A stretch of DNA of 64,000 nt from a virus (lineage: Duplodnaviria > Caudoviricetes), in IMG/VR virus record IMGVR_UViG_3300032093_000005, one strand, 5' to 3'. The stretch's first letter is position 1. Each line of letters opens with the position of its first letter. The translations under genes and the position numbers were made by a program. Under the pieces are notes generated by a model. The model made no database searches, was not told where the DNA came from, and saw only the letters and a list, made by a program, of their open reading frames with translations. Positions 5,309 through 36,600 of this stretch are shown in pieces.

Positions 5309-5348
5309 TTGTTTAGATATTTGGATATAATCTATATTTATTTATAAA

Positions 5349-6696: not shown

Positions 6697-6724
6697 AAAA
6701 TTTAGTTTATAATTATAAGATTAT

Positions 6725-20350: not shown

Positions 20351-21087
20351 TAATAGGATCCTCCGTCTATTACATTTGACCAGGTTGGAATTCCTGATGC
20401 ATTAGTTGAAAGTATATAGTTAGTTTCACTAATTGCAGATGATGTTGTTCCCGTAGATACTAACTGATCATTAGCATCAAAATATGCAATTCCATATGCT
20501 TGACCTGGTGAGTAATAAATTGATTGCGCTACTGTAAGAATGCCAGAAATATAACCATTTCTTGCATTAAACTCATCAAATACTAAGTCATTGCTAACAT
20601 ATAAATCTCCATCAACATATAAATTGTTAAGAAAAGTTGCAACTCCAACAAAAGTTGAAACTCCACTTACATAAAGTTGACTTATAGATGAAATGCTAAT
20701 ATTTGCATTACTTATATCGGCATTTGATAATGTAGTAATTCCAGAAACATTTAAATTAGTATTACTAAGGTTAGTAATAATCCCTACAGTTGATTGTAGA
20801 GTTGAGATAGTTCCAATTCCTGAAATAATAATATTTCTACCAAAAATCTCATCTAAACTAACGTCATTAGTTACATATAAATTAGCGCCGATATAGAGAT
20901 CATTTGCAAATGATGATATACCAGTAAAGGTTGAAACACCGCTGACACTTAACTGTGTAACTGATGCTATACCACCTATTACATTAACTGAGTTAGTTGC
21001 GTTATCCGCAAAAACAGAACCACCAGCAACTGATGATAATATCTTGACAGTATTTTGTTGACCAACTCTAACTTTTATGTCGGGCAT
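20350..21087 (-). CDS. fibre/whisker-like virion protein
   Basis: GGIASVTQLSVSGVSTF.G repeats, IDGGSY C-terminus; position upstream of gp13. Confidence 0.6.
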   Translation of the reverse strand: MPDIKVRVGQQNTVKILSSVAGGSVFADNATNSVNVIGGIASVTQLSVSGVSTFTGISSFANDLYIGANLYVTNDVSLDEIFGRNIIISGIGTISTLQSTVGIITNLSNTNLNVSGITTLSNADISNANISISSISQLYVSGVSTFVGVATFLNNLYVDGDLYVSNDLVFDEFNARNGYISGILTVAQSIYYSPGQAYGIAYFDANDQLVSTGTTSSAISETNYILSTNASGIPTWSNVIDGGSY

Positions 21088-21428
21088 TATCGAGTGACTC
21101 CCTCTCTGACAAGGACCATCCCCTCAATCACTCTACTTTTAATTGAGTTTCTAGTAATTACTACATCATACACGTATCTACCAGGTTTTAAATTAGTTGT
21201 TTGTGCAGATGATAAACTAACTATTATTTTTCCTAAATTAGATGGTGTAGAAATTGAAGTGGTAAAATCAGTAGCCGTTGAACTTCCAGCATATTTTCGC
21301 ATCTGAGCAGTTGCTGTATATCCAGTAAGATCGAGAGCAGAATTTGTGTCACTGGTTTCTAAATTAAAGGTCTGAGAAAAATCAGACCCAGCATTGATTA
21401 CAAGATTATTGACATATACAGCTGCCAT
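21087..21428 (-). CDS. Ig-like/BppU-N-like virion protein
   Basis: NLVINAGSDF, LDLTGYTATAQMRK, GRYVYDVVI motifs; TATAAATA late promoter ~21452-21459. Confidence 0.65.
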   Translation of the reverse strand: MAAVYVNNLVINAGSDFSQTFNLETSDTNSALDLTGYTATAQMRKYAGSSTATDFTTSISTPSNLGKIIVSLSSAQTTNLKPGRYVYDVVITRNSIKSRVIEGMVLVREGVTR

Positions 21429-21459
21429 CTATTTTATAAGCTCTACTTTTTATTTATAC

Positions 21460-21630
21460 CTATATCAAATCGAGAGATGCTATTACCTCTTGCTGTTTAA
21501 GATACAATTTGCAATACAACTTTGCAAAATTTTTTAGTTCATTTTCATTCATTTCATCAATAACACGAACATGCTTTTCATACTCAAATAATTTATCAAT
21601 CGTCTCTAAAGCAATTTTACTTGGATCCAT
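21460..21630 (-). CDS. NblA-like small helical protein (56 aa, not in ORF track)
   Basis: Hand translation MDPSKIALETIDKLFEYEKHVRVIDEMNENELKNFAKLYCKLYLKQQEVIASLDLI; hydrophobic register matches NblA two-helix pattern without gaps. Confidence 0.55.
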   Translation of the reverse strand: MDPSKIALETIDKLFEYEKHVRVIDEMNENELKNFAKLYCKLYLKQQEVIASLDLI

Positions 21631-21817
21631 TTACTATTTCTCTCAATAAAGATTTAATTTCGTCAATGTCTTTTTTCATTTGTTCTATTTCATATTTTTG
21701 TATCTCCCTATTATTTTTTGCATTCATATATTGATTATATGATTGATTATCCACATTAAGAATAGCACCGCTATTCTCATCACGATATAAATTAGGAAAA
21801 CCTTTTACTGGAATCAT
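21617..21817 (-). CDS. small hypothetical, typical of T4-like cyanophages
   Basis: V.G.PNLYRDENSGAILN motif plus C-terminal coiled coil, immediately after the VrlC-like gene. Confidence 0.75.
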   Translation of the reverse strand: MIPVKGFPNLYRDENSGAILNVDNQSYNQYMNAKNNREIQKYEIEQMKKDIDEIKSLLREIVNGSK

Positions 21818-24800
21818 TATGCTAAAGCAATACTTCTTAAATCTTTAAATCTTGGAGAATATGCTTGATTTGTTCCAGACATCACTATTTTAATCGTATA
21901 ACCAGTAAAACTTCCAAGATTATTAGCGGTAAATTCATATTCTAAAAATTGGTCATTTAAACTTTCTGGAACAAAAACATCTGGAAGACCATTATTATTT
22001 GCTGGATTTATAATATCTAAATAACCATCTTGATTGTTATCCACTGTTAGATTGTTGTATCCAGGAAATAAATCAAATGAAGGTGTTATTTCACTTGAAT
22101 CTGGACGTATCAAACTATATAATACTCTAAAGTCTGCTGAAGAGTGTCTATAAGCACTTACAATCACTTTGAGCGCAGATGCTGGTTGTGCTAGTCTTAT
22201 TGTGTTAGAAACGTAAACAGCAGCGTGTGGATCCTCTATTATATTATTAGATCCATTTTCTCCAGCATAATCTTGAATTGGTTTATTTAATCTATTGCTT
22301 AATAGCTCTACAGAAGATTCTTTCCAGAAAACTAATGGGGAAAGATTTGAATCTGTGGTAGATAAATCAACCTTCATGGTAAATGATTTATTTCTCAAGA
22401 ATGATGGTGTATTCAAATATTGTAATTCGTTTACATTTGAACATACAATTCTAGTAGAAGATAGTTTATTTTCAACTCCAAGTTGTACGTTTTCATAAGT
22501 TTGGTCAATAAATGATGATTCATTACCATCAACGCTAGTTCCACTAACTGTTCTAATTTGACCAGTTACTGATGTAGAAGAACCGGGATTTAAAATTGCA
22601 AGATGTGGAGTTATACTATTAAATTGAATATTTTCAGTTGCCTTCACAATGTTTCCACCACACGATAATTCACCATTGAATGAAAGTTGTGGAAATCCTG
22701 TTGGGGAATTATCTGAATTTCTATTGATTGCATTTGAGTCAAAATTTGTTCTATCTACTTCAACATAATAAGTATCAATATCATTTTTACTATCACTTAT
22801 TGTATGTGTTTTGTTTATTCTTCTTAGAGATACTCCTCCAAGTTCATACTTATATACTAATGAATTTATATTATGAGTACTGACTAAAGTAGAATCTATG
22901 CCTCTTCCAGTAAGATTGAGAATTCCGACTCCAACAGTATATTTCATAATTTCATCATCAATTTTTATATAACCTGGATTGGTAACACCATCGACAGGCA
23001 TACCTTCAAATGTTGAGAAATTAGATGTCGAAGCAACGCTAATTGTTACATCTGTTAATGTAACAGGTAAAGTTAATTGAGATGGAGATACATCACTTTC
23101 AACATTTGATAGTGAAACTTTATTACCACTAGAATACATACCATGATTATAATGATTAACTTTAAAGAAGTTTCCTGAATATACTCCACCTACTGAAGTA
23201 GATGAAGTAATTGTAGTATTTGCAAGAGAAACTAAATTTCCAGAAAAATCATAATATGACAAAGTTGCTATTCCAACGTTAAATGAATTTCCCTGAACAT
23301 TTGATAAGTATAATGTATCAATACCAGTTCCTATTCCAGTGATTGTAATACGAGCATTACTTCCTCCAACAGGACTTACTGATGATGTAACAATTCCAAC
23401 AACATCACCAACCTTGTAACCATTTCCTGGATATGGTGTAGATACAGCAACTCCAGTTATAACTCCACCAGAAGCAATAATGTTCAATCTCAAACCACTT
23501 CCATTTCCGGTAATATTATAAGTTTGAACTCCAGGCGTTGTAGTATAATTAAATCCTCCCGTAGTTAATCCAACAGAAGTAACAGAACTTCCAGTTCCAA
23601 CAACATAACCATAATTATATGTTGCAGATTGAACAGAAATTTTTCTACCACTTGTTAATATTCCAATTATACTAGAGTCGGTAATTGTAGTTATGCCTAA
23701 ATTAACTTTTCTAGGTAAAATTGTTATTGGATTTGAACTTAATGTTGGAACATAACTATTACTTTGATCTAATGTTGGATTTTGAAATAATATGCTACCA
23801 ATTTTTGATGTGAAATTTGCTTTGTATAATTTAAATTTCAGATCCTGATAATCATTTGGAGTCCACTCTCCACCATTTTGAGATTTATACAATCTACCAA
23901 TTGCAAATTGTCTAGAATATCTTACTGCTTGAGAATCGGGCAGAGTCCTAGTTTCTATGGTCTTCTCTCCCATTTCTGCAATCCAAACTTCATACTCATC
24001 ACTCTGAGGGGCAAGGAGGACAATTGCATATTGCAATCCTGCTTCTAGATAAATTGGATATTCAAAAGTAACTCTTGTAGGTATAGATGCATTTGTAGAT
24101 GTATTAATATCACTTGGCCTTAAAGTTACTGATTTTCCAACAATAGTTCTTGTAGGAGTACCTAATTCTACGGTTCTTACTTCAACTGTTAATGGAGCAT
24201 TTCCACTATCTTTATTTGCAAAAAACAAATCAACTGCAGTTAAATAAGCTCCGTTAGCATCATCATTTGGTTTTAAACCATTTCCAGATTCTGCTACTCC
24301 ACCAACAGTAAAAGATTGAGCAAGAGGATCAACATAATAAATTGATGTTGTAGTTGTTATAACTCTTTGTCTTTCTTCCCAAGTTCCTTCAGATTTATAA
24401 ATGGTTTCTGCTGAAGAAATTAAAGTGCTTCCTGGTAATGGAATTTGATTTGTTGAACTTGATGATAATTTATAAACCTTTGAACCAGTTGTTATTCTGA
24501 CTGATGGTGGTGGAGTTGTATTTGGATCTTTTAAGAAGAAAGATCCTGATAAAAATCCATTAACATCAGTGATTAATCTTAGATCTTTTACATATGCTTC
24601 TGCACCACTAGTTTGTCCAACTAATTTCATACCAATATCCAAGTATCCAGAATATAATCCCTGAGTTTGGGCACATAAAGATGAGATATCAATATTCAAA
24701 GTTTTTGATGATGCACTATATGCTGAAGGAATAGTTTCTGAAATTGCGTATGGATTGGTTGTATATGTAATTGATGGATTGTTAAATGCACCTTCTTTAT

Positions 24801-27800
24801 GATTTGACGATGCAACTCTGAATGAAATTGCTTGTTTTAGTGTTCCAGAACTTGAATTTGTCCATCCAATTACAGTTTCTCCAACTTGGAAAGCAGCGGA
24901 AGATCCATAATTTTGAAGATTACTATCAGTGGAAATTTCAACAAGTTTTGGAATAAATTGAACACCACTATTTCCATCTAAAAATTGATAAACTCTAGTT
25001 AGTGGTTTCATGTTTACCGCAGTGAATCCAGTGTTTCTGGATCTCATATAAAGTTCTGCCCCAGTATTTCTTAGTACATCTTCAACATTTCTATTAACTG
25101 ATGATCCAACAACTCTAAAAGTTCCGGTTGCTCTTAACCAAATCCAATTTGTTTGATTGATGTTAACATCTTCTAATCTAATTGTTCTGACCCAACTATC
25201 ACTGGATGGATTTAATTTGATAGTTCCACTATAAGAAATAACGTTAAACGGATTTACATTTTCCACCTTTGTAGCAAATGTTTGTTCAATCCAATCTATC
25301 TGTTGATATTTTAATGTAATAGCATCGCCACTTTTTTGAACATTCGAATCATATAATTCAAAATTAGTTTCTAGATCTAAATTTTGATCTGTAACATTTT
25401 GAGATGGGACAGGTCTAAGATTTAAACTATTTTTTGATATTCTTGTGATTAATTCATCATTATCACTATCAATTTCAATCTTTGATAGTTGAGTATTAAT
25501 CAGACTAGTATCCTTAAAATCGTCTACAAAAAATCCCGTTTTAAATCTGTTGAGACCCTGTGCATCTTGTATTTGTAATGTTTGAGTATTAATCTCAAGT
25601 AAAGATAATGATGTTACTCTTTCTAGATTTTCAACTCTATCTTCAATTTTGCCAATATCCCGCATAGTATATCTTCTATTATCTGCTAAAGATACTAATG
25701 CATCTTTAGGATTATAAAGATATGGTGGCAATGTAATAGTAGCAATTTCCATTACATCATTTGGTTTATTTGGTTCTTTTGGTGTAATTGATGGTATCCC
25801 CTTAAGAACGGTAAATACTCCAAATTTATCCAGATATAGCTTATCAATTCTTCCAAGATAATATTGATAACCAATTACTGCACTTTCATTTGGAGACATA
25901 ATAATCTTTGGTTCTATTCCAAAAGATCTAGAAGCAAAATCAAATGGTGATGAAGTTATTGATGTAAATGGCGATACTCTTGGTCTAAAGTCCAAAGTAT
26001 CAGATGCTCTTATGTTACTTTTATCAATATATGGAATATCTGAAGAAAATCTTTCTGCAGCATAACTATTAACAGTAAATACATCTCCAGTATCATTAGA
26101 TGGAACTGAATAATGGTCAAATACTATTAAAAGTTGTTTAGAAGGAGGTGATTCTTCATTTCTTCTTACAATTCTTGAATAATCATAATATTGCTCTTTT
26201 TGTCCCTTATCTAAAGTATACTTTGAAGTAATATTTCTGTAAGTGCCAATTATAATCGATGAAATATTTGTATTAATATTTGATTCTTCAAAAGTTACAA
26301 TTTCATTAGTTACAAATTTACTATCATTTAAATAAACAATTCCTAATGTATTTGCTGCTGGTTTTGATACTATTCTCGCTATTGCATCGCTAGTTCTGCC
26401 TATAATATTTTCCCCAATAATTGCATTAGTATCGACATTTGCAATTGAACTAAATGTAAGTCTATCTAATGAAGGTGAATTTGCATCTAAAGACTCATAT
26501 ATTGCAATAACTTTGACAACATCAGGATAATTTAAACTTATTTCTTCATCTTGAATGCGTAAACCATAGTAAGGATTATAAGTAAGTCCATCATTAATTG
26601 ATGTATTAACACCAACTCCAGATCTAGGATCTTTTGATAATGTTACACTAATAGTTTGTGATCTGTTAAATTGTTTTATCTTACTTTGAATTTTATTTTT
26701 TACAAAAGTTGCATTGATTACTGAAATATTTTTGTTTTGAATATTTGAAAATGTAATTTGATTTGATCCTGCATTTAAAGTAACTTTGTCAGAAGTTAAT
26801 GATTCAATACTTCCATCTTCATAAAAAATAGAATATCTTTCTTCATCAAAAACCTGAAATTGTGCAGTTGTTGAATTAATTCCTAAATTAAATTTTCCAG
26901 TATCTACAGTTAATGTACTGGCAGATATTCCAGTAAATGATGTATTAGATTGTGCAGTAAAAGTAATTGTAGATGTGCTTAAGTCTGTTGAAGAAATGTT
27001 AGAGTTTGGTATCTGAGCATATAAAAATCCTTGCTGATCATTTTTAATTTTAGATAAACCAATAGAATATGGAACGCTAATCGTTAGACCTATACCAGGA
27101 AGAGATCCATCGCAAACTCCAGAAATAGTTGGAACAGCTTCCAACGTCATTGAATTTAAAGCAGGAGAAATTGAAACTACGCGATTATAAATCTCTGTAG
27201 ATATTCCAGGTCTCTGATATCTAATAATATTATCAGTTTTTATTCCACTAAAAGTTGCTGGTGCTGCTACAGTTGCTGTACTAATTCCATTTCCAGCAGC
27301 AGTAATTGTAATAATCTCTGATCGTAATCCTCTATCTAATTGAGTATCACATATAAATGCTGTTGTAAATCCTGAAACAGAAGTTGGTTGATGGATAGAC
27401 TTTACATCTTCAATTTCAAATGTTTTTACTGCAGCAATTGTCCTTGAAATATTATCTGAACCATTTATTAAAATTTGTTCTCCTATTGAAAAAGTTCCGG
27501 ATGTTTGGCGAATGTTAATTAGATTTGTTCCTGATCCAGCAGAAACTGTATACCCACTTGCCCCGCTGCTTTTACCTTTGATAAAAGAAGTCGCTGGAAT
27601 TTCTATAGACGAGACTGATTGATTTAATCTAAGTTCTGTATATGTTTGAATGTCATACAAATACAAATCCCAGTTTGTAGATGCTCCACTATATGCAGCA
27701 TCTGTTACATTAAAACTATAAACTCTTGCAGATCCAATTGTTGTCCCAGCAGCAACTATATTTCCCGAATTACCAATACTACTTTTTCTACGATTCTGAA

Positions 27801-29043
27801 AGAATATTTCTTGCCTTTGTTCTGGCGATCCACTTACATTATTAACTCTTAACAAATTTCCCATTTCAAATGGAATATTTGCAGAAGAAACAGATTGTTT
27901 TGTTCTTGGTTTTTCTACATCTATAATTTCAATACCAGTTTTTTCAATATCATATCCTCTAACATACGCTTTACCTGGAGAAAACTTAACACACATCAAA
28001 TCATCTGATGGTGTTGCATCCTGATCTGTTTTTTCTGTTGCGAAAAATAATCCATCATTTCCTAATCTATCATTTAGCGAATTATTTAATGAAAATTGAA
28101 ATGGATTAACAACATAATCCCCAGATTCATCATATGTTCTCTGGGCTAAGTAATCTTTAATTAATGAGTAACTTGATTTTATTTCTATTTTCTTGATTGC
28201 ACCATCTTTTACTCTTAGTAATTCAATAAAATCAGTATCATTAGTATCTGTTAGTAGTTTTTTAGATAGTGTTGTAGAAATTTTAAATCTATCTGCTCCA
28301 GGAGCAGCGTAATTTGTAAAACCTTTTGCATTGTCATATAATGCAGAATCATCTTTAGCGGTAATAATTTGTTCAGTTACTTTTAGACCAACTCTATAAG
28401 ATGGAGTATTGGTGTAATAGTCTAAAATTATTGTTTGCTTTGGAACTCTTACAAAAGTGCCTCTAATAAAATATACACCATCATTAATTGATACTGCAGA
28501 TCCAGTTACAGTTGCATTTGAAGAAATGGTCGTAGCAAAAGGTGTATTTGCTATTATTGATCCTACATTTTCAGATGCAGTTAATAATTCATTATCACTA
28601 AAAGGATTAATTTCAAAATTTGAATCAGAATTTAAATATTTTACATAAAGAGTTGGGTATTCAACATCAGAATTAGGAAGTTGAACTAATTGAACTACCG
28701 CTGTAACACCTGATATTTGACCTGTTATCTTTTTACCAACAAAATTTGACAAATAAGAAGTTAAATTAACTCCATATTGTTGTGTATTTAATTTTACTGC
28801 AGTAAATTGATCATCAAAGGTAATATTTCCTGGAATAACCAAAGATCCTTCTTTGAAAATATGACTCCCAAAAGTTTCTACTTGATCTTGTAATATAGAT
28901 TGAAGAGTATTTAACTCTCGTGCTTGTATTGGTTTGCCTGGATTAAAAAGAACTTTATAATAATTTTTATCTCTTGCACCGATATTTTGTTCGGCAAAGT
29001 CATCAAAATATGGACTTACATTGAGATTAGTTTTTTGAGCCAT
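21817..29043 (-). CDS. large virion structural protein, DUF4815/VrlC-like
   Basis: TNLNVSPYFDDF, VLFNPG.PIQARELNTLQSILQ, LAQRTYDESGDY, RFKTGFFVDDF. Confidence 0.85.
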   Translation of the reverse strand: MAQKTNLNVSPYFDDFAEQNIGARDKNYYKVLFNPGKPIQARELNTLQSILQDQVETFGSHIFKEGSLVIPGNITFDDQFTAVKLNTQQYGVNLTSYLSNFVGKKITGQISGVTAVVQLVQLPNSDVEYPTLYVKYLNSDSNFEINPFSDNELLTASENVGSIIANTPFATTISSNATVTGSAVSINDGVYFIRGTFVRVPKQTIILDYYTNTPSYRVGLKVTEQIITAKDDSALYDNAKGFTNYAAPGADRFKISTTLSKKLLTDTNDTDFIELLRVKDGAIKKIEIKSSYSLIKDYLAQRTYDESGDYVVNPFQFSLNNSLNDRLGNDGLFFATEKTDQDATPSDDLMCVKFSPGKAYVRGYDIEKTGIEIIDVEKPRTKQSVSSANIPFEMGNLLRVNNVSGSPEQRQEIFFQNRRKSSIGNSGNIVAAGTTIGSARVYSFNVTDAAYSGASTNWDLYLYDIQTYTELRLNQSVSSIEIPATSFIKGKSSGASGYTVSAGSGTNLINIRQTSGTFSIGEQILINGSDNISRTIAAVKTFEIEDVKSIHQPTSVSGFTTAFICDTQLDRGLRSEIITITAAGNGISTATVAAPATFSGIKTDNIIRYQRPGISTEIYNRVVSISPALNSMTLEAVPTISGVCDGSLPGIGLTISVPYSIGLSKIKNDQQGFLYAQIPNSNISSTDLSTSTITFTAQSNTSFTGISASTLTVDTGKFNLGINSTTAQFQVFDEERYSIFYEDGSIESLTSDKVTLNAGSNQITFSNIQNKNISVINATFVKNKIQSKIKQFNRSQTISVTLSKDPRSGVGVNTSINDGLTYNPYYGLRIQDEEISLNYPDVVKVIAIYESLDANSPSLDRLTFSSIANVDTNAIIGENIIGRTSDAIARIVSKPAANTLGIVYLNDSKFVTNEIVTFEESNINTNISSIIIGTYRNITSKYTLDKGQKEQYYDYSRIVRRNEESPPSKQLLIVFDHYSVPSNDTGDVFTVNSYAAERFSSDIPYIDKSNIRASDTLDFRPRVSPFTSITSSPFDFASRSFGIEPKIIMSPNESAVIGYQYYLGRIDKLYLDKFGVFTVLKGIPSITPKEPNKPNDVMEIATITLPPYLYNPKDALVSLADNRRYTMRDIGKIEDRVENLERVTSLSLLEINTQTLQIQDAQGLNRFKTGFFVDDFKDTSLINTQLSKIEIDSDNDELITRISKNSLNLRPVPSQNVTDQNLDLETNFELYDSNVQKSGDAITLKYQQIDWIEQTFATKVENVNPFNVISYSGTIKLNPSSDSWVRTIRLEDVNINQTNWIWLRATGTFRVVGSSVNRNVEDVLRNTGAELYMRSRNTGFTAVNMKPLTRVYQFLDGNSGVQFIPKLVEISTDSNLQNYGSSAAFQVGETVIGWTNSSSGTLKQAISFRVASSNHKEGAFNNPSITYTTNPYAISETIPSAYSASSKTLNIDISSLCAQTQGLYSGYLDIGMKLVGQTSGAEAYVKDLRLITDVNGFLSGSFFLKDPNTTPPPSVRITTGSKVYKLSSSSTNQIPLPGSTLISSAETIYKSEGTWEERQRVITTTTSIYYVDPLAQSFTVGGVAESGNGLKPNDDANGAYLTAVDLFFANKDSGNAPLTVEVRTVELGTPTRTIVGKSVTLRPSDINTSTNASIPTRVTFEYPIYLEAGLQYAIVLLAPQSDEYEVWIAEMGEKTIETRTLPDSQAVRYSRQFAIGRLYKSQNGGEWTPNDYQDLKFKLYKANFTSKIGSILFQNPTLDQSNSYVPTLSSNPITILPRKVNLGITTITDSSIIGILTSGRKISVQSATYNYGYVVGTGSSVTSVGLTTGGFNYTTTPGVQTYNITGNGSGLRLNIIASGGVITGVAVSTPYPGNGYKVGDVVGIVTSSVSPVGGSNARITITGIGTGIDTLYLSNVQGNSFNVGIATLSYYDFSGNLVSLANTTITSSTSVGGVYSGNFFKVNHYNHGMYSSGNKVSLSNVESDVSPSQLTLPVTLTDVTISVASTSNFSTFEGMPVDGVTNPGYIKIDDEIMKYTVGVGILNLTGRGIDSTLVSTHNINSLVYKYELGGVSLRRINKTHTISDSKNDIDTYYVEVDRTNFDSNAINRNSDNSPTGFPQLSFNGELSCGGNIVKATENIQFNSITPHLAILNPGSSTSVTGQIRTVSGTSVDGNESSFIDQTYENVQLGVENKLSSTRIVCSNVNELQYLNTPSFLRNKSFTMKVDLSTTDSNLSPLVFWKESSVELLSNRLNKPIQDYAGENGSNNIIEDPHAAVYVSNTIRLAQPASALKVIVSAYRHSSADFRVLYSLIRPDSSEITPSFDLFPGYNNLTVDNNQDGYLDIINPANNNGLPDVFVPESLNDQFLEYEFTANNLGSFTGYTIKIVMSGTNQAYSPRFKDLRSIALA

Positions 29044-29046
29044 CTT

Positions 29047-30621
29047 TTAAAATTCCAGGATAATTTTAACGTCTTCTTTTTGTCTAGAATTTCGAGAAAC
29101 TGTTGATCTATTATCAATATAAATTATATCTCCCGACTTATTATTTATCTCTGGATTTGCAAGTCCATTAGTAAATTCAACTCCAAGATTTATAACTTTA
29201 TTTGAAATAGTTGTAGTTATTCCAGAAAATCCACTAATTGTTCCATTCCATCCACTGGGGAATTTATTGACACTTGTAATTGTATTAAATCCAACTGATT
29301 TTCCGGAAGAATTGAAAAACGTAGACATGCCTACAAAATCAGTATGTCCAATTCCACCGCCACCACTAAAATATATAGATCTATCCGAATAATATTTCAA
29401 AACATTTGTTTCAGAGTCATAAGAAACAACATAACCTAATGCTTTTTTTCCATCCGATTGAATTTGCTGTATCTTATCACCTACTGCTGGTGTTCCACCA
29501 GTAATAGAACTAAATCTCATAGAATAAACACCAGAAAAATCACTTTGAGTATAAACTGAAGTGTTTATCCCTGTTGAATCAAATACAGTTGGATTCTTTA
29601 TGATTCCAACTTGAGAAAATTTAGAATCTACTGGAAAATCTTTTGTTGAATCATCAAACCTTGCATAGATTAAAATTTTATCTGCACCAAGTTCTTTATA
29701 TAAATCAAATCCATGACCCTTTGAAGGTGGGATGATTGGAATTAATTCTGCAAAAACTCCATCATTTCCAAGAGCACCTTGTTGAGTTGCTAAATCAACT
29801 AAAGCAAAAGTATAATTTTTTCCACCAGATGTAACAGTAACATCTGTAATTTTAGTTGATGCGTCTACAGTGACTAAAACTGTTCCATTAGATCCATCAC
29901 CAACTAAATTGCAAGATCTAGTTCCTGAAGCATATCCAAGACCTTGATTTTTAATATAAACTTTTTTAATCTGATTTTCGTTAAGATCAGAATTTCCATT
30001 TTCTCTTACTGATACAATTTGAGAATTAGTGGAAGTTTGCCAATCATTAGGAAGAGTTATATACTCTGTTGAATCGAACTTAATAATGTCTGATGGGGAA
30101 ATTGTGTAAAGATATTTCCAAGAATATCCATCACTTAATTGTGTTGGTTCTAAATCTGTAAAAGTTGGTTCTATTTGAGAAGCATTCCCTGTACTATTAA
30201 TTCCAGAAGAACCATTGTCAATGCAAATATAAATTCTATAATCAGAATTTATAACATAATAATTTGTATCATATAATCTTAAAGAACCTGCTACTGGAGA
30301 ACGATTTAAATCACTATAATCTGGGCGATACATCTCATATTTTTGTCCAGAATTCCAATCAACTTTTCTAATTACTCTTCTTATATTTGCACTTGTTATT
30401 TTTTTACCAAATAGAATAGTTGAATTATAATGATTTAAATAATCAATATTATCAGTTGGATTTGGTGGTATAGTATCCCAAGTAGCACTTCTTCCAAATC
30501 CAGATGCTGTTGGGTTGGATAATCCAACAAAAACATAATAAGAATTTGAAGAGTCGTTAACAGAATCTACAAAATTAGATGCATTAAGTATTCTAAACTG
30601 ATCTGTTACAATTGCAGGCAT
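29047..30621 (-). CDS. gp8: baseplate wedge subunit (gp8)
   Basis: AIVTDQFRILNA, GYSWKYLYTI, GDIIYIDNR, QKEDVKIILEF. Confidence 0.93.
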   Translation of the reverse strand: MPAIVTDQFRILNASNFVDSVNDSSNSYYVFVGLSNPTASGFGRSATWDTIPPNPTDNIDYLNHYNSTILFGKKITSANIRRVIRKVDWNSGQKYEMYRPDYSDLNRSPVAGSLRLYDTNYYVINSDYRIYICIDNGSSGINSTGNASQIEPTFTDLEPTQLSDGYSWKYLYTISPSDIIKFDSTEYITLPNDWQTSTNSQIVSVRENGNSDLNENQIKKVYIKNQGLGYASGTRSCNLVGDGSNGTVLVTVDASTKITDVTVTSGGKNYTFALVDLATQQGALGNDGVFAELIPIIPPSKGHGFDLYKELGADKILIYARFDDSTKDFPVDSKFSQVGIIKNPTVFDSTGINTSVYTQSDFSGVYSMRFSSITGGTPAVGDKIQQIQSDGKKALGYVVSYDSETNVLKYYSDRSIYFSGGGGIGHTDFVGMSTFFNSSGKSVGFNTITSVNKFPSGWNGTISGFSGITTTISNKVINLGVEFTNGLANPEINNKSGDIIYIDNRSTVSRNSRQKEDVKIILEF

Positions 30622-30653
30622 TTGAATATTGTTTTTTCTATATTTATACTATG

Positions 30654-33600
30654 TTATAGATCCTTTTTAATTGCACCAGTATTTCTTAATCCATAATTTC
30701 TTCTTTGGATGGTTGGGAACGTGGTTAATCCTGAATTAACCGTAAATCCAGAAATACCAATTGAAATTGGAGTTAACGATCTTGTTAGTGAAGATAATTT
30801 ACCCCAAGAAAACTTACCAACATTATCACCCGTAGTTGCAATTCCAACTATTGAAGTTTGAGAATGAATATTACATGTAACCACACCCGCAGAAATTGCA
30901 CTTATTCGGTAAATGTTATCTACGCATATAGTACCAATCCCGATCACATCAGTATTTGAATTTATAATAGAAGTAACACCATTTCCAACTATTGTATCAT
31001 AAACAAAAATATAATCACCAATAGAGAGAGATGGTACTAATGAATCAAAGTTTTGTGCAGTAAATCTAAGGGCCAAATCTGTTCCAATACCGACTGTTGT
31101 TCCAATACCAGTTAGATTTCCAGATTTACCTGCTACTGCGGTAATGTTGGTGATATTTTCATAAGTTGGATCTGGTAAAGGAACAAGAACTTGTGGTGGA
31201 TTTGACGTTGTATAACCAAATCCCGGATTATTAATTGTAACTGCAGATAAAGAACCGTTAACTATACTAATTGATGCATTTGCTGTAGTCCCAATCCCAA
31301 CACCTATTCTCATTGGAGACGAAATGCTTACATTTATAGACGCACCTACATAACCACCACCAGCATTATTAATTGATAATGACTGAATTGTTCCTGCAAT
31401 AGAAACAACAGCAGTAACAGCAGCAGATACTGGATCTGGAGTGCCAGAAATAATTAATGCATTAAAATCTGGAGTTATTTCCGATTCATAGTTAAAGAAT
31501 TCTGAATTATCGACATATATTGTACCATCTGTCGATGTCAAGTCTTTAATAATTTTAGCAGTTGGATAAATTTGAGGTTCAATAGAATCTCTAGATTTAG
31601 AAATTAATTCACCATCGATGACCTTATCTACTTTTTGTTTTGTCCAATTTAGTGGTTTGAAGTTACTAGCATCAATACCTTGAAAACCATATGGTGATGT
31701 TTCTATAATATCTGATGTTACTATTCCAGAAATTACTCTAGAATTTTGTGTAGTTGTAATTCCAGAAAGTAAATTGTTACTTAAAATTTGAATATCATCA
31801 CCAGGTTTAAGAGTTTCAAAAACTGTTATATATTCACTATCTAAAGAACTTCCCCTATAGAAATAAATTGATATATTATCTTCTACTTTAGGTGGTTCAG
31901 TAAATGTAAACGAGGTTCCTCCATTAAATTGATATGCAACACCTGGTTGCTGAAGAATTCCATTGATAAAAATTACTAATAATGTATTAAAATCGATTAA
32001 TTGAGAGTCTTGATCTTTTGAATTTTTCTCAAAACTTAATAACTGTGAGTTGTAATAAAGTGGGAATCTAACTCTTAGTCCGTCTTGTAAATTTTTAATT
32101 GAATCAATGTAATCTAATTCACCAAACTGCCAAGCAGAGAATGAGTCTGTAAAAGTATCAACAACTGTTAATTTAAATTCCGAAATAGGTGAAGATAAAC
32201 CATATGCAGTTACAAGTCCAACGACCTTAACAACATCTCCAGGTTTAAATCCATATCCATTTCTTACAATTTCAAAATTAGTTACTTCAAAGAGTGTTGA
32301 TCCAATTCCTGTAGTTGAACATGCACCAACATCAACATTTACTAATAATCCTGTTCCACAACTAGTTGTTGTCCCTATTCCTAATCTAGAAACTCCAATT
32401 ACTGTTAAATTACTATAACTTGGAGCAGAAACATTAATTGTTGGATTTGTGTATCCACTCCCACCATTAACAATAGTAAATGAAAGAGTTCCTCCAGCAC
32501 CTACGTTTGCTGAAATTATTGATCCATTACCAGTAGAGTCGGTAACCGCTACAGAAACTGGATTTGTATATCCAGATCCCCAATTACCTGTTGTTCCTAT
32601 TCCAATAGATGTAATTATACCTCCAGAAATAATAGATGTAACAGATGCTCCAACTAAAGGAGCATAACCTAATCCAGGAGTTGATCCTAAAGATACAATT
32701 ACACCACCTCTTGGAAGTTGATTTAAATTTATATCTGATTCTGAAACTATAAGTGACCCATTTGTTGATGTAATTCCTGAAAATACTATACTACTAACAC
32801 CAACTACAGTATCCTCAAAAATTCTGAAGTTATTGTTTATATTATTTTCTGTGGTTGGAGTTTGATAAATTCCATTAATTAAAACAATTCCATTTCCACC
32901 TATAGTTCCCAATCCAATAGTGTTTCCTCCACCAACAGTTAATTTATAAGTCTGTCCTATTCCTGTGAAATTTTCAGAAATGTTATCATAAACTACATTT
33001 GAAGTATAATCTTTTCTTAAAAATACTCTACCATTAAAGTATGATTTTGCCTCAGGAAGTTCATCAAAATCGACAAGTAATTGATCTTCTAAACTTCCTT
33101 GTGGAGGATATGTAAAATAAATAGCACTCTTTGAAATATTAAAAGATCCTCTATAAACAGACGCAATTCCCGAGTTTGAATGTGAAGTTGCCGAAGATCC
33201 AACAAAACCTCTTTTAACGCCAACTAATGGGAATGTCCCTGCAAAAGAAATTGGTCCGGAGTATGTTGTGCCAAATCCAACATTTTCAACTTTCATATAT
33301 TCGTTATCAATCTTAAGAATATCTCCAATAAGAATTGAAGATATACCACTTAATGCAAAGAATGTAGTTGCTGCACCAATAGAAGTACCATTATTAACGG
33401 TATAATTTAATAAAGAGTATGATATTGGAGATTGAATTATATTATCAATTGTAATAATTGATTTTTCATTTTTCTTGACCATTTCCAATTCATGTGCATT
33501 ACCAAGACCAACTGAAGTAAATGTTACCGCTATTCCAGCTGCGGCATATTCTTTTCTGGTTGCTATTTTAAATTTATCATTATTAATTTTAATTGCATAT

Positions 33601-36600
33601 ACAACTGGAGGAAGAAGATTGGTAACGACTCCAACATAATTTAAAGTAGATCCAATTCCAACTGAAGTTGCAGCAACTCCAATAAAAGTTGAATTTGGTC
33701 TGTAAATTAATTCTTCACCTGTACTAAAGAAATGATTTGAAATATTAAAGTTTCCAGTTGATGGTTCTAATACTAAAGAATTTGAGGGATCAAAAGTTTT
33801 CATGAAAATTGGCACGCCATTATATTTAAGATCAAATTGAAGAGTATTAATATCATCATCATTAATAGCAAAGTACTTAGAAACTCCAACTGATTCTAAA
33901 ACATTACTATATTCTAAATTTGGAGCAATATTTACATAATCATTTTCTCTATAAAAACTTTGATTAAAACTTAAAATTTCAAAAGTTCCTGAGAATCCTG
34001 CATCAGGATAAAATTTCAATGATACTGTTGATCCAGATATTTCACCACCAAAAGTTCCTATTCCAGAAGTGCTTCCTATTGATAAGAATGGATATTGAGT
34101 TGTATAAACATTATTAGAATCTGAAATAAGCATTACTTGATGTAATGCACTTGTTTGACCAATACTTACCTTTAAAACTGATTTTACTGCATTAAATTGT
34201 GTAGACTGATATGAAATAATAGTTGATGCTGATGAAACATTTGTATATAATGAATCATATTTCACAGTATTTTCATATCCTTCAAGTTGAGCTGGTTGTT
34301 TAAATCTATATGTCCCTATACCAGATCCAGATGCAGTTGTTCCAAATCCAATATTTTTGGATCGAATTGTTATACTATTGGTTGAAGTATTTGTGCAGGT
34401 TAATGATAAAATACCACTTGGACTAATGGAAGCTCCAAATGATCCAATAAAATTAGAACTCATTCCATCTTCACTATCAAAATAAAATTCTGATATATTT
34501 GTATCTGTACCATTATGATCTACAAAAAGTTCAACATAATTCATTTCATTAGTTACATTATCAATTAAATGAATTTCAGAATGAATAGATTCTATTACTG
34601 CAGCACTTGATTCTAATAAAATTGCAGTTGAACCTGAAGAAACTGTAGATGTTGTTCCAGTGAGATTAATAAATCCTATAGAAGCAGTGCCTACACCTGA
34701 AGTGTAATTTGTAAAGGTGGTATTTAAATATTTTATATTATAAGATGTATTGTATCCTTCTCTAGGAGTAAACTTAAGATAGTAATCTCCAGTGCTATCA
34801 TCAATGTATCCATAAACATCTCCAATACTATTTGAAATATAACCAGTTTCAATTGAAGATCCTACAGATATTGTTCCTTTTTCTAACGTAATAATATTGG
34901 AATTATCATTTAAGACTATTACTTCATTAAATTGAGATTGGGAATAGTCCTTACTTGATATTTGTACGAGATACTTATTATACTTTCTAGAAGAAATGAT
35001 ATCTACAATTTTTGCAGAAGTATCTAAATCAAGTGCCTGGTCGGAGGTTGAAAATTCAGAACTAATATCATCAATTTCAAGAACTCTGTTTGTTCTGCAT
35101 TCAAAATAATTTGATAGTCTTTTATTTTGGAGTTTTACAAATCTAGAAATATTTTTAGTTTGATTCACATCAAAATCCTGAACAAAATCAAAATTATTAA
35201 TTGTATCTACTCTATTTTCATCTATAATATTGTAGTAAGAATTGACATACTCTTCTACATTTGTTGTTCCAACACCAACATTCTGAATAATTTGAGTATC
35301 TGCAAAGTTTTTGAGACCACTTGGATGAAGTATTCCATTTACAGGACTTACTATATCAATCCATTCTTGATTACTTTTTACAGTATATGATAAATTTTGA
35401 TAATAATCATTATCAGATATGACTTGAGTATCTTCATCTAATTTACCAATATTATCTGACCATCCAATATTTTGAACTGATGAATAATCAATGATAAATT
35501 GTCCGGTTGATTCTTTAACTTCATTAATTGTAGCGATTGAACCAGATTGAGTTCCGCGTATAATTTGACCTTTTTCTAATTCATATGATCCCGAAGTCTT
35601 AATATAATTATTATTTGATTCTGAAATTTTTAAATCTTTTTCAATAAAATTACTTTGTTCTTTTATTTCTAGCGATTCTCCAATAATAAAATTTGAAAAA
35701 ACTTGATTAAAGTTAAATGATGGATAATCACTGTAGTTAATAATTCTTCCATAATTATTATCGAGTGTTTTTGCAATTCCTGGATTTGTTGTTAAACCTG
35801 ATAAATTAAATCTTACAACTGCTGGGGTACTTGATGTTGATGCAGTATAACTAGAAACTGTAAAAAATTGATAACCATAATTTTCAGAATTTAGTCCATC
35901 TCCTTCAGTTCCATACTTTTCAATTCCCTCTACATAAATTTTATCACCAACTGCAAATGGTTCTACACTAAAACCAGATGATGGTGATAGTAAAGAACAA
36001 GTTACTATTCCAGATGATGAAGATTGTATAGAACTAATACCAACTCCATTTGAATTATTAATTACTTTCATAGTAACAGGATTTTCAGGCAATCCCTTTG
36101 GTTCAATAATAACATTGACTGATGTAATTACATTTGCGGATAAATTTGCTAGAATTAATCCCGAATCAATTTTTTCTCCAGTATCAGAATTTACTAAAAT
36201 TATATCTGGTGCTGAAATATAATTTTTTCCACCATATGTAACATTAACTTCCTCAATTGTTTTTGAATTTTCAATAGTTAAAAACTTAGGAATAGATGCT
36301 TCTGGTCGCAAAGTTTTATCTGAAGAATATTCAAAACCTTCATTTAGAATTCTAATTTCATTAATTTGTCCAACATAATCTGATTTTGGTATAATATATG
36401 CACCTGTTCCTGAAATTGAATCAATTCCTTCGAATACTGGTAACTTTTTAAAATTGGATCCTGCTGAAATTGTCCTAACCTTAGAAACTCCACCAGAAGC
36501 ACTTGCAGAAGTTGTAGTGTATTCTAAACTATCACAATCACTTTGAGTATAATAATTTTTCTCTGGTGATTTTGTTAATGAAATACTAAATGTTGTTGTC

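What the first reader, a model, noticed from the sequence alone, without database searches (positions are those of the whole stretch)
21460..21630. Unannotated NblA-like ORF inside the late structural cluster
Seen: a 56-aa ORF below the track cutoff, ..TIDKLFEYEKHVRVIDEMNENELKNFAKLYCKLYLKQQEVI.. It aligns without gaps to the recalled NblA pattern SLEQQF-x11-MSREQAQEFL..LYRQM.VK..LF, keeping F, M and F and the spacing of two helices. Established: NblA is the adaptor for phycobilisome proteolysis, and functional viral NblAs are known. Inference: a divergent NblA-fold protein co-expressed with virion genes; identity is low, so it may be an unrelated helical hairpin.
Basis: partly seen in the sequence, partly recalled or inferred. 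Interest (0 to 1): 0.72.

Follow-up and report, generated by a model that had tools for sequence, protein, structure and literature searches.

The report
Divergent NblA-like gene in freshwater cyanophage
The 56-codon gene is real, well conserved, and most likely a very divergent viral copy of NblA, the adaptor that marks the cyanobacterial light-harvesting antenna for destruction. Close relatives were already flagged as NblA-like in the literature, and nobody has tested this branch at the bench.

Summary
The ORF at 21460-21630 (minus strand, 56 aa) exists as described. It is a real gene: 706 protein clusters and 336 IMG/VR loci hold relatives. In the 80 loci examined it starts with ATG and shows dN/dS of about 0.12-0.16.

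Pfam NblA (PF04485) does not detect it or any of 73 family representatives. The link to NblA rests on four other results:
- The family profile matches a multi-copy small-protein family of picocyanobacteria (hhalign 98.5%, E 1.6e-15).
- That host family matches canonical NblA (91.5%, E 8.5e-7).
- The host-only profile finds exactly this ORF in the 175-kb phage record.
- In an exhaustive comparison with 48,161 PDB chains, the AF2 model's three best matches are the three NblA structures (1OJH: Z 6.9, rmsd 1.0 Å over 50 residues).

The direct phage-to-canonical profile match is weak. The canonical E-Q of helix 1 and the C-terminal tail are missing.

The gene is the last cistron after the VrlC-like giant protein and a 66-aa virion protein, which it overlaps by 14 nt. 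Late expression is inferred from this layout, not shown.

The S-SRM01 homologue (75% identical) was already called a distant NblA by HHpred in 2022, and S-SCSM1 and S-SCSM2R carry the label. This scan also reached the same reading on other DNA. Verdict: a new member of a known, untested group.

The parts
21460..21630 (-). 56-aa NblA-like ORF (stop codon included). Predicted helix-loop-helix, with helices at residues 11-25 and 29-54.
   Evidence: ORF; phrog_27081, E 1.7e-17; AF2 pLDDT 91.4; NblA structures are the top 3 matches; profile links; purifying selection
21617..21630 (-). 14-nt overlap between the end of the 66-aa virion-protein gene and the start of the NblA-like ORF. This suggests translational coupling.
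   Evidence: The same 14-nt overlap geometry follows from the match coordinates in the loci printed; it was not tallied across all 80.
21617..21817 (-). 66-aa virion structural protein gene, immediately upstream in the same transcription direction
   Evidence: phrog_473, E 7.9e-20; annotated as 'virion structural protein' in S-SRM01 and S-SM2
21817..29043 (-). 2408-aa VrlC/VriC-like giant protein gene, upstream with no intergenic gap
   Evidence: phrog_358; annotated VriC/VrlC in S-SRM01 and S-SM2
30641..30648 (-). TATAAATA (T4-type late-promoter-like motif), 20 nt upstream of the baseplate-wedge gene 29047-30621. This is the candidate start of the transcription unit that ends with the NblA-like ORF.
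   Evidence: The promoter function is inferred.
21451..21458 (-). TATAAATA motif 1 nt after the ORF's stop codon and 23 nt before the LtfC-like gene. This is a candidate late promoter for the next unit, which places the ORF at the end of its own unit.
   Evidence: NATAAATA lies 0-2 nt after the stop in 38 of 80 related loci.
21087..21428 (-). 113-aa LtfC-like beta-sandwich protein gene, the downstream neighbour
   Evidence: PF23926, E 2.9e-4, below cut-off; phrog_3304, E 7e-37

Best explanation
The ORF encodes a small two-helix protein that is a highly divergent viral homologue of NblA. It belongs to the same sequence type as the multi-copy NblA-like proteins of picocyanobacteria (Synechococcus/Cyanobium).

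Most likely mechanism (inferred): it pairs up like NblA and bridges host phycobiliproteins, and possibly other proteins, to the ClpC-ClpP protease. This would dismantle the antenna and free amino acids for phage production, as shown experimentally for the T7-like cyanophage S-TIP37 NblA.

In this phage it is the last cistron of a structural-gene unit and overlaps the preceding 66-aa virion-protein gene by 14 nt. It is therefore probably made together with late proteins.

Shown here: the gene is real and under purifying selection; its homology chain to NblA; its NblA-like predicted fold; its conserved position.

Inferred only: dimerisation, ClpC and phycobiliprotein binding, the bleaching effect and expression timing.
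For: Real gene:
- phrog_27081 at E 1.7e-17 and 706 clusters.
- 336 IMG/VR loci; 80 of 80 examined start with ATG, are 55-61 aa long and have median dN/dS 0.12-0.16 with pS about 0.72.

Homology chain:
- The family profile A2 matches 122 of 151 picocyanobacterial genomes. Genomes of 2.1-3.5 Mb hold 2-7 copies; genomes of 1.5-1.9 Mb hold none or 1-2, mostly weak, matches. This is the distribution published for picocyanobacterial nblA (PMC12695635).
- hhalign A2 vs host family A5: 98.5%, E 1.6e-15.
- A5 vs 25 canonical PF04485 NblAs (A4): 91.5%, E 8.5e-7 over 55 columns.
- Merged A2+A5 vs A4: 79%, E 1.6e-5.
- Column-shuffled controls score at most 14.4-18.6, against real scores of 23.5, 30.3 and 36.9.
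- The reciprocal test with the host-only profile A5 finds one hit in the 174,667-bp phage record, and it is this ORF (E 6e-7).

Fold:
- The AF2 model has pLDDT 91.4.
- An exhaustive VIA-align search ranks 1ojh_A (Z 6.9, rmsd 1.0 Å, 50 aa), 2q8v_A (Z 6.4) and 3cs5_A (Z 5.3, rmsd 0.9 Å) as numbers 1-3 of 48,161 chains.
- An ESM-atlas NblA/ycf18 cluster matches at TM 0.77.

Other support:
- Relatives sit outside structural modules in S-TIM5 and S-SKS1, and at other sites in S-SCSM1 and S-SCSM2R, as expected for a mobile auxiliary gene.
- HHpred gave 95-97% probability to NblA for S-SRM01, S-B43, SynMITS9220M01 and S-SCSM1.
- The phage carries psbA and psbD, and its psbA is closest to freshwater Synechococcus/Cyanobium.
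Against: - No match to Pfam PF04485 for this protein, for any of 73 family representatives or anywhere in the phage record. There is no PDB sequence match either.
- The direct profile match to canonical NblA is weak (27%, P 6.6e-4). A comparable score (22.3) arises against the reversed host alignment, so the link depends on the intermediates.
- The host intermediates are themselves not recognised by Pfam or NCBIfam.
- The canonical near-invariant E and Q of helix 1 (LEQxF) are replaced (..DKLF), and the C-terminal K-H-x-W-G-L tail is absent.
- Z scores of 5-7 are in the range where helical hairpins match by shape alone. The model of a host homologue did not single out NblA (1ojh at rank 19, Z 4.6).
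- Tight and universal linkage to virion genes in this clade (80 of 80 loci) is unusual for an auxiliary gene.
- No member of this branch has been tested experimentally.
Confidence: 0.65

Rival explanations
1. The protein is NblA-derived but not a degradation adaptor of the classical kind. It pairs with one of the host's several NblA paralogues, or competes with them. In this way it either blocks starvation-type bleaching so that light harvesting continues during infection, or redirects Clp-dependent proteolysis to other targets.
For: - The canonical E-Q of the N-terminal (ClpC-binding) motif and the C-terminal tail are not kept.
- Hosts carry 2-7 paralogues, some as adjacent pairs. Canonical NblA1/NblA2 act as a heterodimer (review PMC7966870).
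- One viral NblA (G1b) failed to complement, and its authors proposed that it needs a host partner (10.1101/494369).
- The phage keeps psbA and psbD, genes that sustain photosynthesis.
- Viral NblA also directs degradation of non-phycobilisome proteins (PMC12695635).
Against: - There is no direct evidence for inhibition.
- The only functionally dissected marine viral NblA promotes degradation (PMC12695635).
- Host picocyanobacterial NblA-like proteins also lack parts of the canonical motifs, so the losses may be lineage-typical rather than inactivating.
Confidence: 0.18
2. The protein is an unrelated helical hairpin that serves virion assembly, for example as a small chaperone or accessory of the VrlC-like protein, the 66-aa virion protein or the LtfC-like protein. 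Its resemblance to NblA would be convergent.
For: - Synteny is invariant, with a 14-nt overlap with the 66-aa virion-protein gene in related viral loci and in S-SRM01 and S-SM2.
- It sits inside a block with late-promoter-like motifs.
- Pfam shows no NblA signal.
- Fold-match Z scores lie in the range common to helical hairpins.
Against: - Homologues lie among small accessory genes, tRNAs and redox genes in S-TIM5 and S-SKS1, and next to a helicase or terminase in S-SCSM1 and S-SCSM2R.
- Clear homologues exist in multiple copies in host chromosomes (hhalign E 1.6e-15), which is not expected for a virion assembly factor.
- The host family links to canonical NblA at E 8.5e-7.
Confidence: 0.12
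3. It is not a gene: a chance open frame in AT-rich DNA between structural genes.
For: It is short and was missed by annotation cut-offs. In the window the Shine-Dalgarno-like sequence is weak.
Against: - It is intact with an ATG start in 80 of 80 related loci.
- dN/dS is 0.12-0.16 while synonymous sites are near saturation.
- 19 residues are invariant across 44 relatives.
- The AF2 model has pLDDT 91.
- A conserved AAGGAG lies upstream of the ATG in the relatives shown.
Confidence: 0.02

Closest known systems
Cyanomyovirus NblA-like group: S-SRM01 gp198 (YP_010670173.1 / QPX48163.1), S-SM2 SSM2_101, Bellamy, SynMITS9220M01, S-B43, S-SCSM1 ORF237 ('phycobilisome degradation protein'), S-SCSM2R ORF118 ('NblA'), S-TIM5 gp189
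   Same: It is the same protein family: 75% identity to S-SRM01 and 42-53% to the others. The gene order VrlC-like / 66-aa virion protein / ORF / LtfC-like / gp13 is the same as in S-SRM01 and S-SM2. These proteins were predicted to be distant NblA homologues by HHpred at 95-97% probability (PMC9602691 Table S4). S-TIM5 was listed by Nadel et al. 2019 (as cited).
   Different: It comes from an uncultured freshwater phage record and was unannotated there. The genomic position differs from S-SCSM1, S-SCSM2R, S-TIM5 and S-SKS1. None of these proteins has been tested functionally.
Picocyanobacterial NblA-like paralogues (marine and freshwater Synechococcus/Cyanobium; described in Nadel et al. 2025, PMC12695635)
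   Same: Homology is clear (hhalign 98.5%, E 1.6e-15). They share an F-E-x-E-K-x-S-R-x-I-D core in helix 1 and A-K in helix 2, and their length is similar. The copy-number pattern matches the published one.
   Different: The viral proteins end about 5-10 residues earlier. They carry a K-L-Y-L-K-Q-Q-E second helix instead of L-L-x-A-W-x-Q-Q. The host proteins form their own clade in a poorly resolved tree. The function of the host paralogues is itself mostly inferred.
Canonical NblA (Pfam PF04485; Nostoc PCC 7120 1OJH, T. vulcanus 2Q8V, S. elongatus 3CS5)
   Same: Both are helix-loop-helix proteins of about 60 aa. The predicted structure superposes on 1OJH at 1.0 Å over 50 residues. The register of L, F and the hydrophobic positions of helix 1 and of the helix-2 core is the same.
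   Different: There is no Pfam hit. The near-invariant E, Q (helix 1) and Q-A (helix 2) are not kept, and there is no K-H-x-W-G-L C-terminal tail.
T7-like cyanophage NblA (S-TIP37), the only marine viral NblA dissected genetically
   Same: Both are small viral NblA-family genes of picocyanobacterial phages. S-TIP37 provides the functional model: it speeds the infection cycle and directs phycobilisome and other protein degradation (PMC12695635).
   Different: T7-like NblAs resemble canonical cyanobacterial NblAs more than their hosts' and match PF04485 by HHpred. This family resembles the hosts' divergent type. The genomic context also differs: downstream of the exonuclease gene there, against the end of a structural operon here.

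Membership tests
NblA (Pfam PF04485) | Sequence scores above the Pfam gathering threshold (25 bits) | tested here: not met
   There is no PF04485 hit for P0001 at E<=10, none in the six-frame search of the whole phage record, and none among 73 family representatives at E<=1.
NblA (Pfam PF04485) | Profile-profile homology to canonical NblA | tested here: inconclusive
   The direct comparison is weak: 27% probability, P 6.6e-4, 40 columns in the expected register. Through picocyanobacterial intermediates it is significant: 98.5%/E 1.6e-15, then 91.5%/E 8.5e-7. The merged profile gives 79%/E 1.6e-5. Shuffled controls score at most 18.6, but one reversed control reached 22.3.
NblA (Pfam PF04485) | Helix-loop-helix monomer of about 60 aa that superposes on solved NblA structures | tested here: met
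   AF2 gives pLDDT 91.4 with helices 11-25 and 29-54. 1ojh_A (Z 6.9, rmsd 1.0 Å over 50 aa), 2q8v_A (Z 6.4) and 3cs5_A (Z 5.3) rank 1-3 of 48,161 chains. Caveat: Z below 8 is common for helical proteins.
NblA (Pfam PF04485) | Functional form is a dimer (four-helix bundle) | tested here: inconclusive
   The one multimer job gave no verdict (see Tried and rejected). Indirect hint only: one metagenomic representative (P0130, 134 aa) carries two units in a single chain.
NblA (Pfam PF04485) | Conserved N-terminal motif (L-x-L-E-Q-x-F), reported to bind ClpC (Karradt 2008, as cited in PMC4103541) | tested here: not met
   The L and F positions and their spacing are kept. The near-invariant E and Q of the 25 canonical sequences are replaced by D/S and an invariant K in the viral family. 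Host-type proteins keep the Q.
NblA (Pfam PF04485) | C-terminal motif reported to bind phycobiliproteins (Bienert 2006, as cited in PMC4103541; from my own memory, L51 and K53 of Nostoc NblA) | tested here: inconclusive
   By the structural alignment (model 7-56 = 1OJH 5-54), L51 corresponds to L53, so a hydrophobic residue is kept, and K53 corresponds to L55. The K-H-x-W-G-L tail is absent because the protein ends at residue 56. The residue numbers are recalled, not checked in a held paper.
NblA (Pfam PF04485) | Causes phycobilisome degradation (bleaching); binds ClpC and phycobiliproteins | not testable with these tools
   This needs expression, complementation or a phage deletion mutant. 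No member of this branch has been tested.
Picocyanobacterial-type NblA-like family (Nadel et al. 2025) and its cyanomyovirus relatives | Significant reciprocal profile similarity to the multi-copy small proteins of Synechococcus/Cyanobium | tested here: met
   The viral profile finds 2-7 copies per genome in 2.1-3.5 Mb picocyanobacterial genomes. hhalign gives E 1.6e-15. The host-only profile returns this ORF as the single hit in the phage record (E 6e-7).
Picocyanobacterial-type NblA-like family (Nadel et al. 2025) and its cyanomyovirus relatives | Score of 20 bits or more against the authors' custom NblA profiles (Supplementary Data 10) | not tested
   The supplementary files are not held.

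The most novel reading that the evidence does not exclude
This cyanomyovirus branch has lost the canonical ClpC-binding E-Q and the C-terminal tail, and it is hard-wired by a 14-nt overlap to the end of a late virion operon. It might not be a plain degradation adaptor. It could be a late-acting NblA mimic that pairs with host NblA paralogues, either to hold the antenna intact until lysis or to retarget Clp proteolysis.
Probability: 0.15. Interest if true: 0.6.

Novelty: new member of a known kind. Interest (0 to 1): 0.3.

Why it matters
Viral NblA has recently been shown to speed infection and reduce light harvesting by oceanic picocyanobacteria, but only for T7-like phages. This gene extends the host-type, highly divergent NblA-like family to an abundant group of freshwater T4-like cyanophages: 336 IMG/VR loci, and lake and freshwater metagenomes.

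Standard profiles miss the whole group, so counts of phage-encoded antenna-degradation genes are probably underestimates. Its fixed place at the end of a structural operon raises a testable question about when and why myoviruses would attack the antenna.

The gain is incremental, because close relatives were already flagged by HHpred and annotated as NblA.

Tried and rejected
Sequence searches that found no NblA:
- Pfam and NCBIfam scans of the protein, of 73 family representatives and of 18 host homologues: no NblA hit.
- Sequence and profile searches of the PDB: only chance hits, such as a short AcrIIA15 segment at E 0.1-0.3.
- Foldseek against the PDB: nothing below E = 1.
- megablast of the region against phage genomes: no match.

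Attempts that were uninformative:
- hhalign against a narrow Ma-LMM01-type NblA alignment: P 0.009, uninformative because that alignment has Neff 1.3.
- The search for related loci with the Ma-LMM01-type alignment in genome contigs found nothing. Canonical NblAs were instead collected with PF04485 from 81 cyanobacterial genomes.
- Homodimer prediction (complex prediction, two copies with alignment A1): no verdict. Score 0.35 against a mark of 0.42, controls 0.00. This is not evidence either way.
- Fold search with a model of a host homologue (pLDDT 72): NblA only at ranks 19 and 26, tied with many helical proteins, so not discriminating.
- The tree of 99 sequences is too poorly resolved and is unrooted, so it cannot give a donor or direction of transfer.

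Missing data:
- Sequencing runs: no RNA holder listed. All 20 holders are DNA metagenomes, mostly freshwater or lake.
- The supplementary NblA profiles and sequences of PMC12695635 are not held.
- Dines et al. 2008 is not held.

Other negatives:
- Sigma-70-like promoter hits around the ORF are no more frequent than in shuffles.
- No CpeT or bilin reductase gene was found in the (78% complete) phage record.

Rejected readings: a chance ORF, rejected on the conservation pattern; and long proteins P0198 and P0216 as relatives, because they share only a local motif or low-complexity sequence.

Full report
**Observation**

The window holds an ATG-to-stop ORF at 21460..21630 on the minus strand (56 aa, P0001). 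Its start overlaps the last 14 nt of a 66-aa gene (21617..21817). Its stop is followed after 1 nt by TATAAATA and after 31 nt by the next gene (21087..21428).

The surrounding genes are structural (same order in S-SRM01 and S-SM2). In order they are:
- a baseplate-wedge protein (phrog_438)
- a 2408-aa VrlC/VriC-like protein (phrog_358)
- the 66-aa virion structural protein (phrog_473)
- this ORF
- an LtfC-like protein (phrog_3304)
- a baseplate-wedge-like repeat protein
- gp13-like Ad2 and gp14-like Hc2

The record is an IMG/VR virus contig of 174,667 bp, estimated 78% complete. It carries psbA and psbD. Its psbA is closest to freshwater Synechococcus/Cyanobium, and the DNA occurs in lake and freshwater metagenomes. 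This is a freshwater T4-like cyanomyovirus.

**Is it a gene?**

Yes.
- It matches PHROG 27081 (unknown function) at E 1.7e-17.
- It has 706 relatives at 90% clustering in metagenomes.
- 119 relatives at 50% clustering match at E<=1e-3.
- 336 IMG/VR loci encode relatives.

In the 80 best loci the ORF always starts with ATG and is 55-61 aa long. Against the window, pS is about 0.72 and pN about 0.16. Median dN/dS is 0.12 against the window and 0.16 over 1,522 pairs. Nineteen residues are invariant among 44 relatives.

The protein is about as conserved as its structural neighbours, or more so.

**Is it NblA?**

The simple test fails:
- Pfam PF04485 gives no hit for the protein even at E<=10.
- It gives none in a six-frame search of the whole phage record.
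- It gives none for 73 diverse family representatives.
- Sequence and profile searches of the PDB and Foldseek are also blank.

This agrees with the literature. Marine cyanophage and picocyanobacterial NblAs are reported to score poorly against the Pfam profile (10.1101/494369; PMC12695635).

More sensitive tests are positive.

First, I searched 151 picocyanobacterial genomes with the family profile A2. 122 have matches. Genomes of 2.1-3.5 Mb typically carry 2-7 copies. Genomes of 1.5-1.9 Mb carry none or 1-2, mostly weak, matches. Nadel et al. 2025 describe exactly this distribution for nblA in marine Synechococcus versus Prochlorococcus. Several host copies lie as adjacent pairs, as do the canonical nblA1/nblA2 genes of Synechocystis.

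Second, I built two alignments: 18 host proteins (A5) and 25 canonical, Pfam-positive NblAs from diverse cyanobacteria and Microcystis phages (A4). The hhalign results are in the table.

| Comparison | Probability | E or P | Score |
|---|---|---|---|
| A2 vs A5 | 98.5% | E 1.6e-15 | 78.5 |
| A5 vs A4 | 91.5% | E 8.5e-7 (55 columns) | 36.9 |
| A2+A5 merged vs A4 | 79% | E 1.6e-5 | 30.3 |
| A2 vs A4 (direct) | 27% | P 6.6e-4 | 23.5 |

The direct A2-A4 match, though weak, is in the same register as the others.

Controls: column-shuffled A4 reached at most 14.9, 18.6 and 14.4, and reversed A4 scored 9.7-11.9. However, A2 against reversed A5 scored 22.3. The direct A2-A4 score alone is therefore not decisive, and the argument rests on the chain through the host family.

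Third, the reciprocal test: the host-only profile A5 finds one hit in the whole phage record, and it is this ORF (E 6e-7).

**Structure**

A template-free AF2 model built on 44 relatives has pLDDT 91.4 and two helices, 11-25 and 29-54.

In an exhaustive VIA-align comparison with 48,161 PDB representatives, the top three matches are the three NblA structures:

| Chain | Source | Z | rmsd | Aligned residues |
|---|---|---|---|---|
| 1ojh_A | Nostoc | 6.9 | 1.0 Å | 50 of 52 |
| 2q8v_A | T. vulcanus | 6.4 | 2.8 Å | 51 |
| 3cs5_A | S. elongatus | 5.3 | 0.9 Å | 46 |

The first unrelated chain follows at Z 5.3 with rmsd 3.0 Å.

The ESM-atlas shape search returns an NblA/ycf18 cluster at TM 0.77, behind the protein's own family. 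The feature search lists a viral cluster in which 45% of members carry PF04485, at score 0.77 (a lead only).

Caveats: Z values below 8 are common for helical proteins. A lower-quality model of a host homologue (pLDDT 72) did not single out NblA (ranks 19 and 26, Z 4.5-4.6).

**What is not conserved**

A three-way alignment keeps the leucine and phenylalanine of helix 1, the hydrophobic register and the helix-2 core.
- The canonical near-invariant E-Q (L-x-L-E-Q-x-F, the region reported to bind ClpC; PMC4103541) reads D/S-K in the viral family. Host-type proteins keep the Q.
- The viral proteins stop at about residue 56 and lack the K-H-x-W-G-L tail.
- By the structural alignment, Nostoc L51 corresponds to L53 here and K53 to L55. 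That these two Nostoc residues matter for phycobiliprotein binding is from my memory of Bienert et al. 2006 and was not checked.

**Context and expression**

The order VrlC-like C-terminus / 66-aa protein / ORF / LtfC-like is present in 69 of 80 related loci. Of the other eleven, nine show no LtfC-like match and two show no VrlC-like match (one of these also lacks the 66-aa protein); some of these loci end close to the gene. The same order occurs in S-SRM01 and S-SM2.

In S-TIM5 and S-SKS1 the homologue sits among small accessory ORFs, tRNAs and redox genes. In S-SCSM1 it lies between a virion protein and a helicase. In S-SCSM2R it lies next to the terminase genes. Such mobility argues against a dedicated assembly role.

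TATAAATA, the T4-type late-promoter core, occurs four times in the window. All four copies are on the gene-bearing minus strand. Three lie 20-31 nt upstream of gene starts, including 30641-30648 (before the baseplate-wedge gene) and 21451-21458 (just after this ORF).

There is no gap between 30621 and 21460. The ORF is therefore probably the last cistron of a late unit and is translationally coupled to the 66-aa gene. This is inference. No RNA data were available, and sigma-70-like hits are at background level.

**Comparison with what is known**

- Nadel et al. 2019 predicted nblA in S-TIM5 (as cited in PMC9602691).
- The S-SCSM1 paper (PMC9602691) predicted nblA in S-SCSM1 and seven cyanomyovirus homologues by HHpred. 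One of them is S-SRM01 QPX48163.1 (96.9%, E 2.5e-2), which is 75% identical to this protein.
- S-SCSM2R ORF118 is annotated NblA (PMC12801897).
- Functional proof exists only for other branches: freshwater phages, one metagenomic G1 NblA, and S-TIP37.
- Two earlier follow-ups of this scan reached the same reading for homologues in other genomes.

**Verdict**

The gene is a new, unannotated member of an already flagged but experimentally untested group of host-type NblA-like genes in cyanomyoviruses.

My estimates:
- About 0.8 that it is a true NblA homologue.
- About 0.65 that it is a true homologue and also acts as a proteolysis adaptor for the antenna.
- About 0.18 that it is NblA-derived but modulates or antagonises host NblA.
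- About 0.12 that it is an unrelated assembly hairpin.

Noticed in passing
P0130 (metagenomic representative, 134 aa, sequence): One chain carries two complete NblA-like units in tandem, joined by a short linker. It could be a natural single-chain dimer, which would support dimerisation, or two adjacent genes read through by the gene caller.
   Followed up: partly
host genomes, e.g. G119:C1:869322-869641, G135:C3:1335972-1336288, G132:C1:1201083-1201408, G197:C1:928039-928355: In several picocyanobacterial genomes, two NblA-like matches lie about 100 nt apart on the same strand. This parallels the canonical nblA1/nblA2 pair found in Synechocystis (G003:C84:12072-12496).
   Followed up: no
window 5339-5346, 6722-6729, 21451-21458, 30641-30648 (all minus strand): TATAAATA occurs only 4 times (7.2 expected by chance), always on the gene-bearing strand. 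Three copies lie 20-31 nt upstream of gene starts. They look like T4-type late promoters.
   Followed up: partly
L157 (S-SKS1, NC_020851.1), locus 2264-2677: The S-SKS1 homologue is annotated as the C-terminal third of a 137-aa ORF (SWZG_00226). The family-like part begins at an internal position (match 2501-2662), so the annotated start is probably too far upstream. P0133, P0171 and other 130-140-aa representatives show the same pattern.
   Followed up: no
P0032: One 56-aa family member, 77% identical to the query, is named 'ferredoxin-thioredoxin reductase catalytic subunit' by JGI. This is almost certainly a mis-transferred name.
   Followed up: no
window 30654-43025 (minus strand): A 4123-aa ORF lies directly upstream of the baseplate-wedge gene. 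Together with the 2408-aa VrlC-like protein, two giant structural genes fill about 19.6 kb of the window.
   Followed up: no
8jfr_B / 8jfo_B (AcrIIA15): The family's helix-1 motif (L-x-S-x-x-K-L-F-E-Y-x-K) matches residues 42-62 of the anti-CRISPR AcrIIA15 at E 0.1-0.3. It is a short, sub-significant match, probably chance.
   Followed up: no
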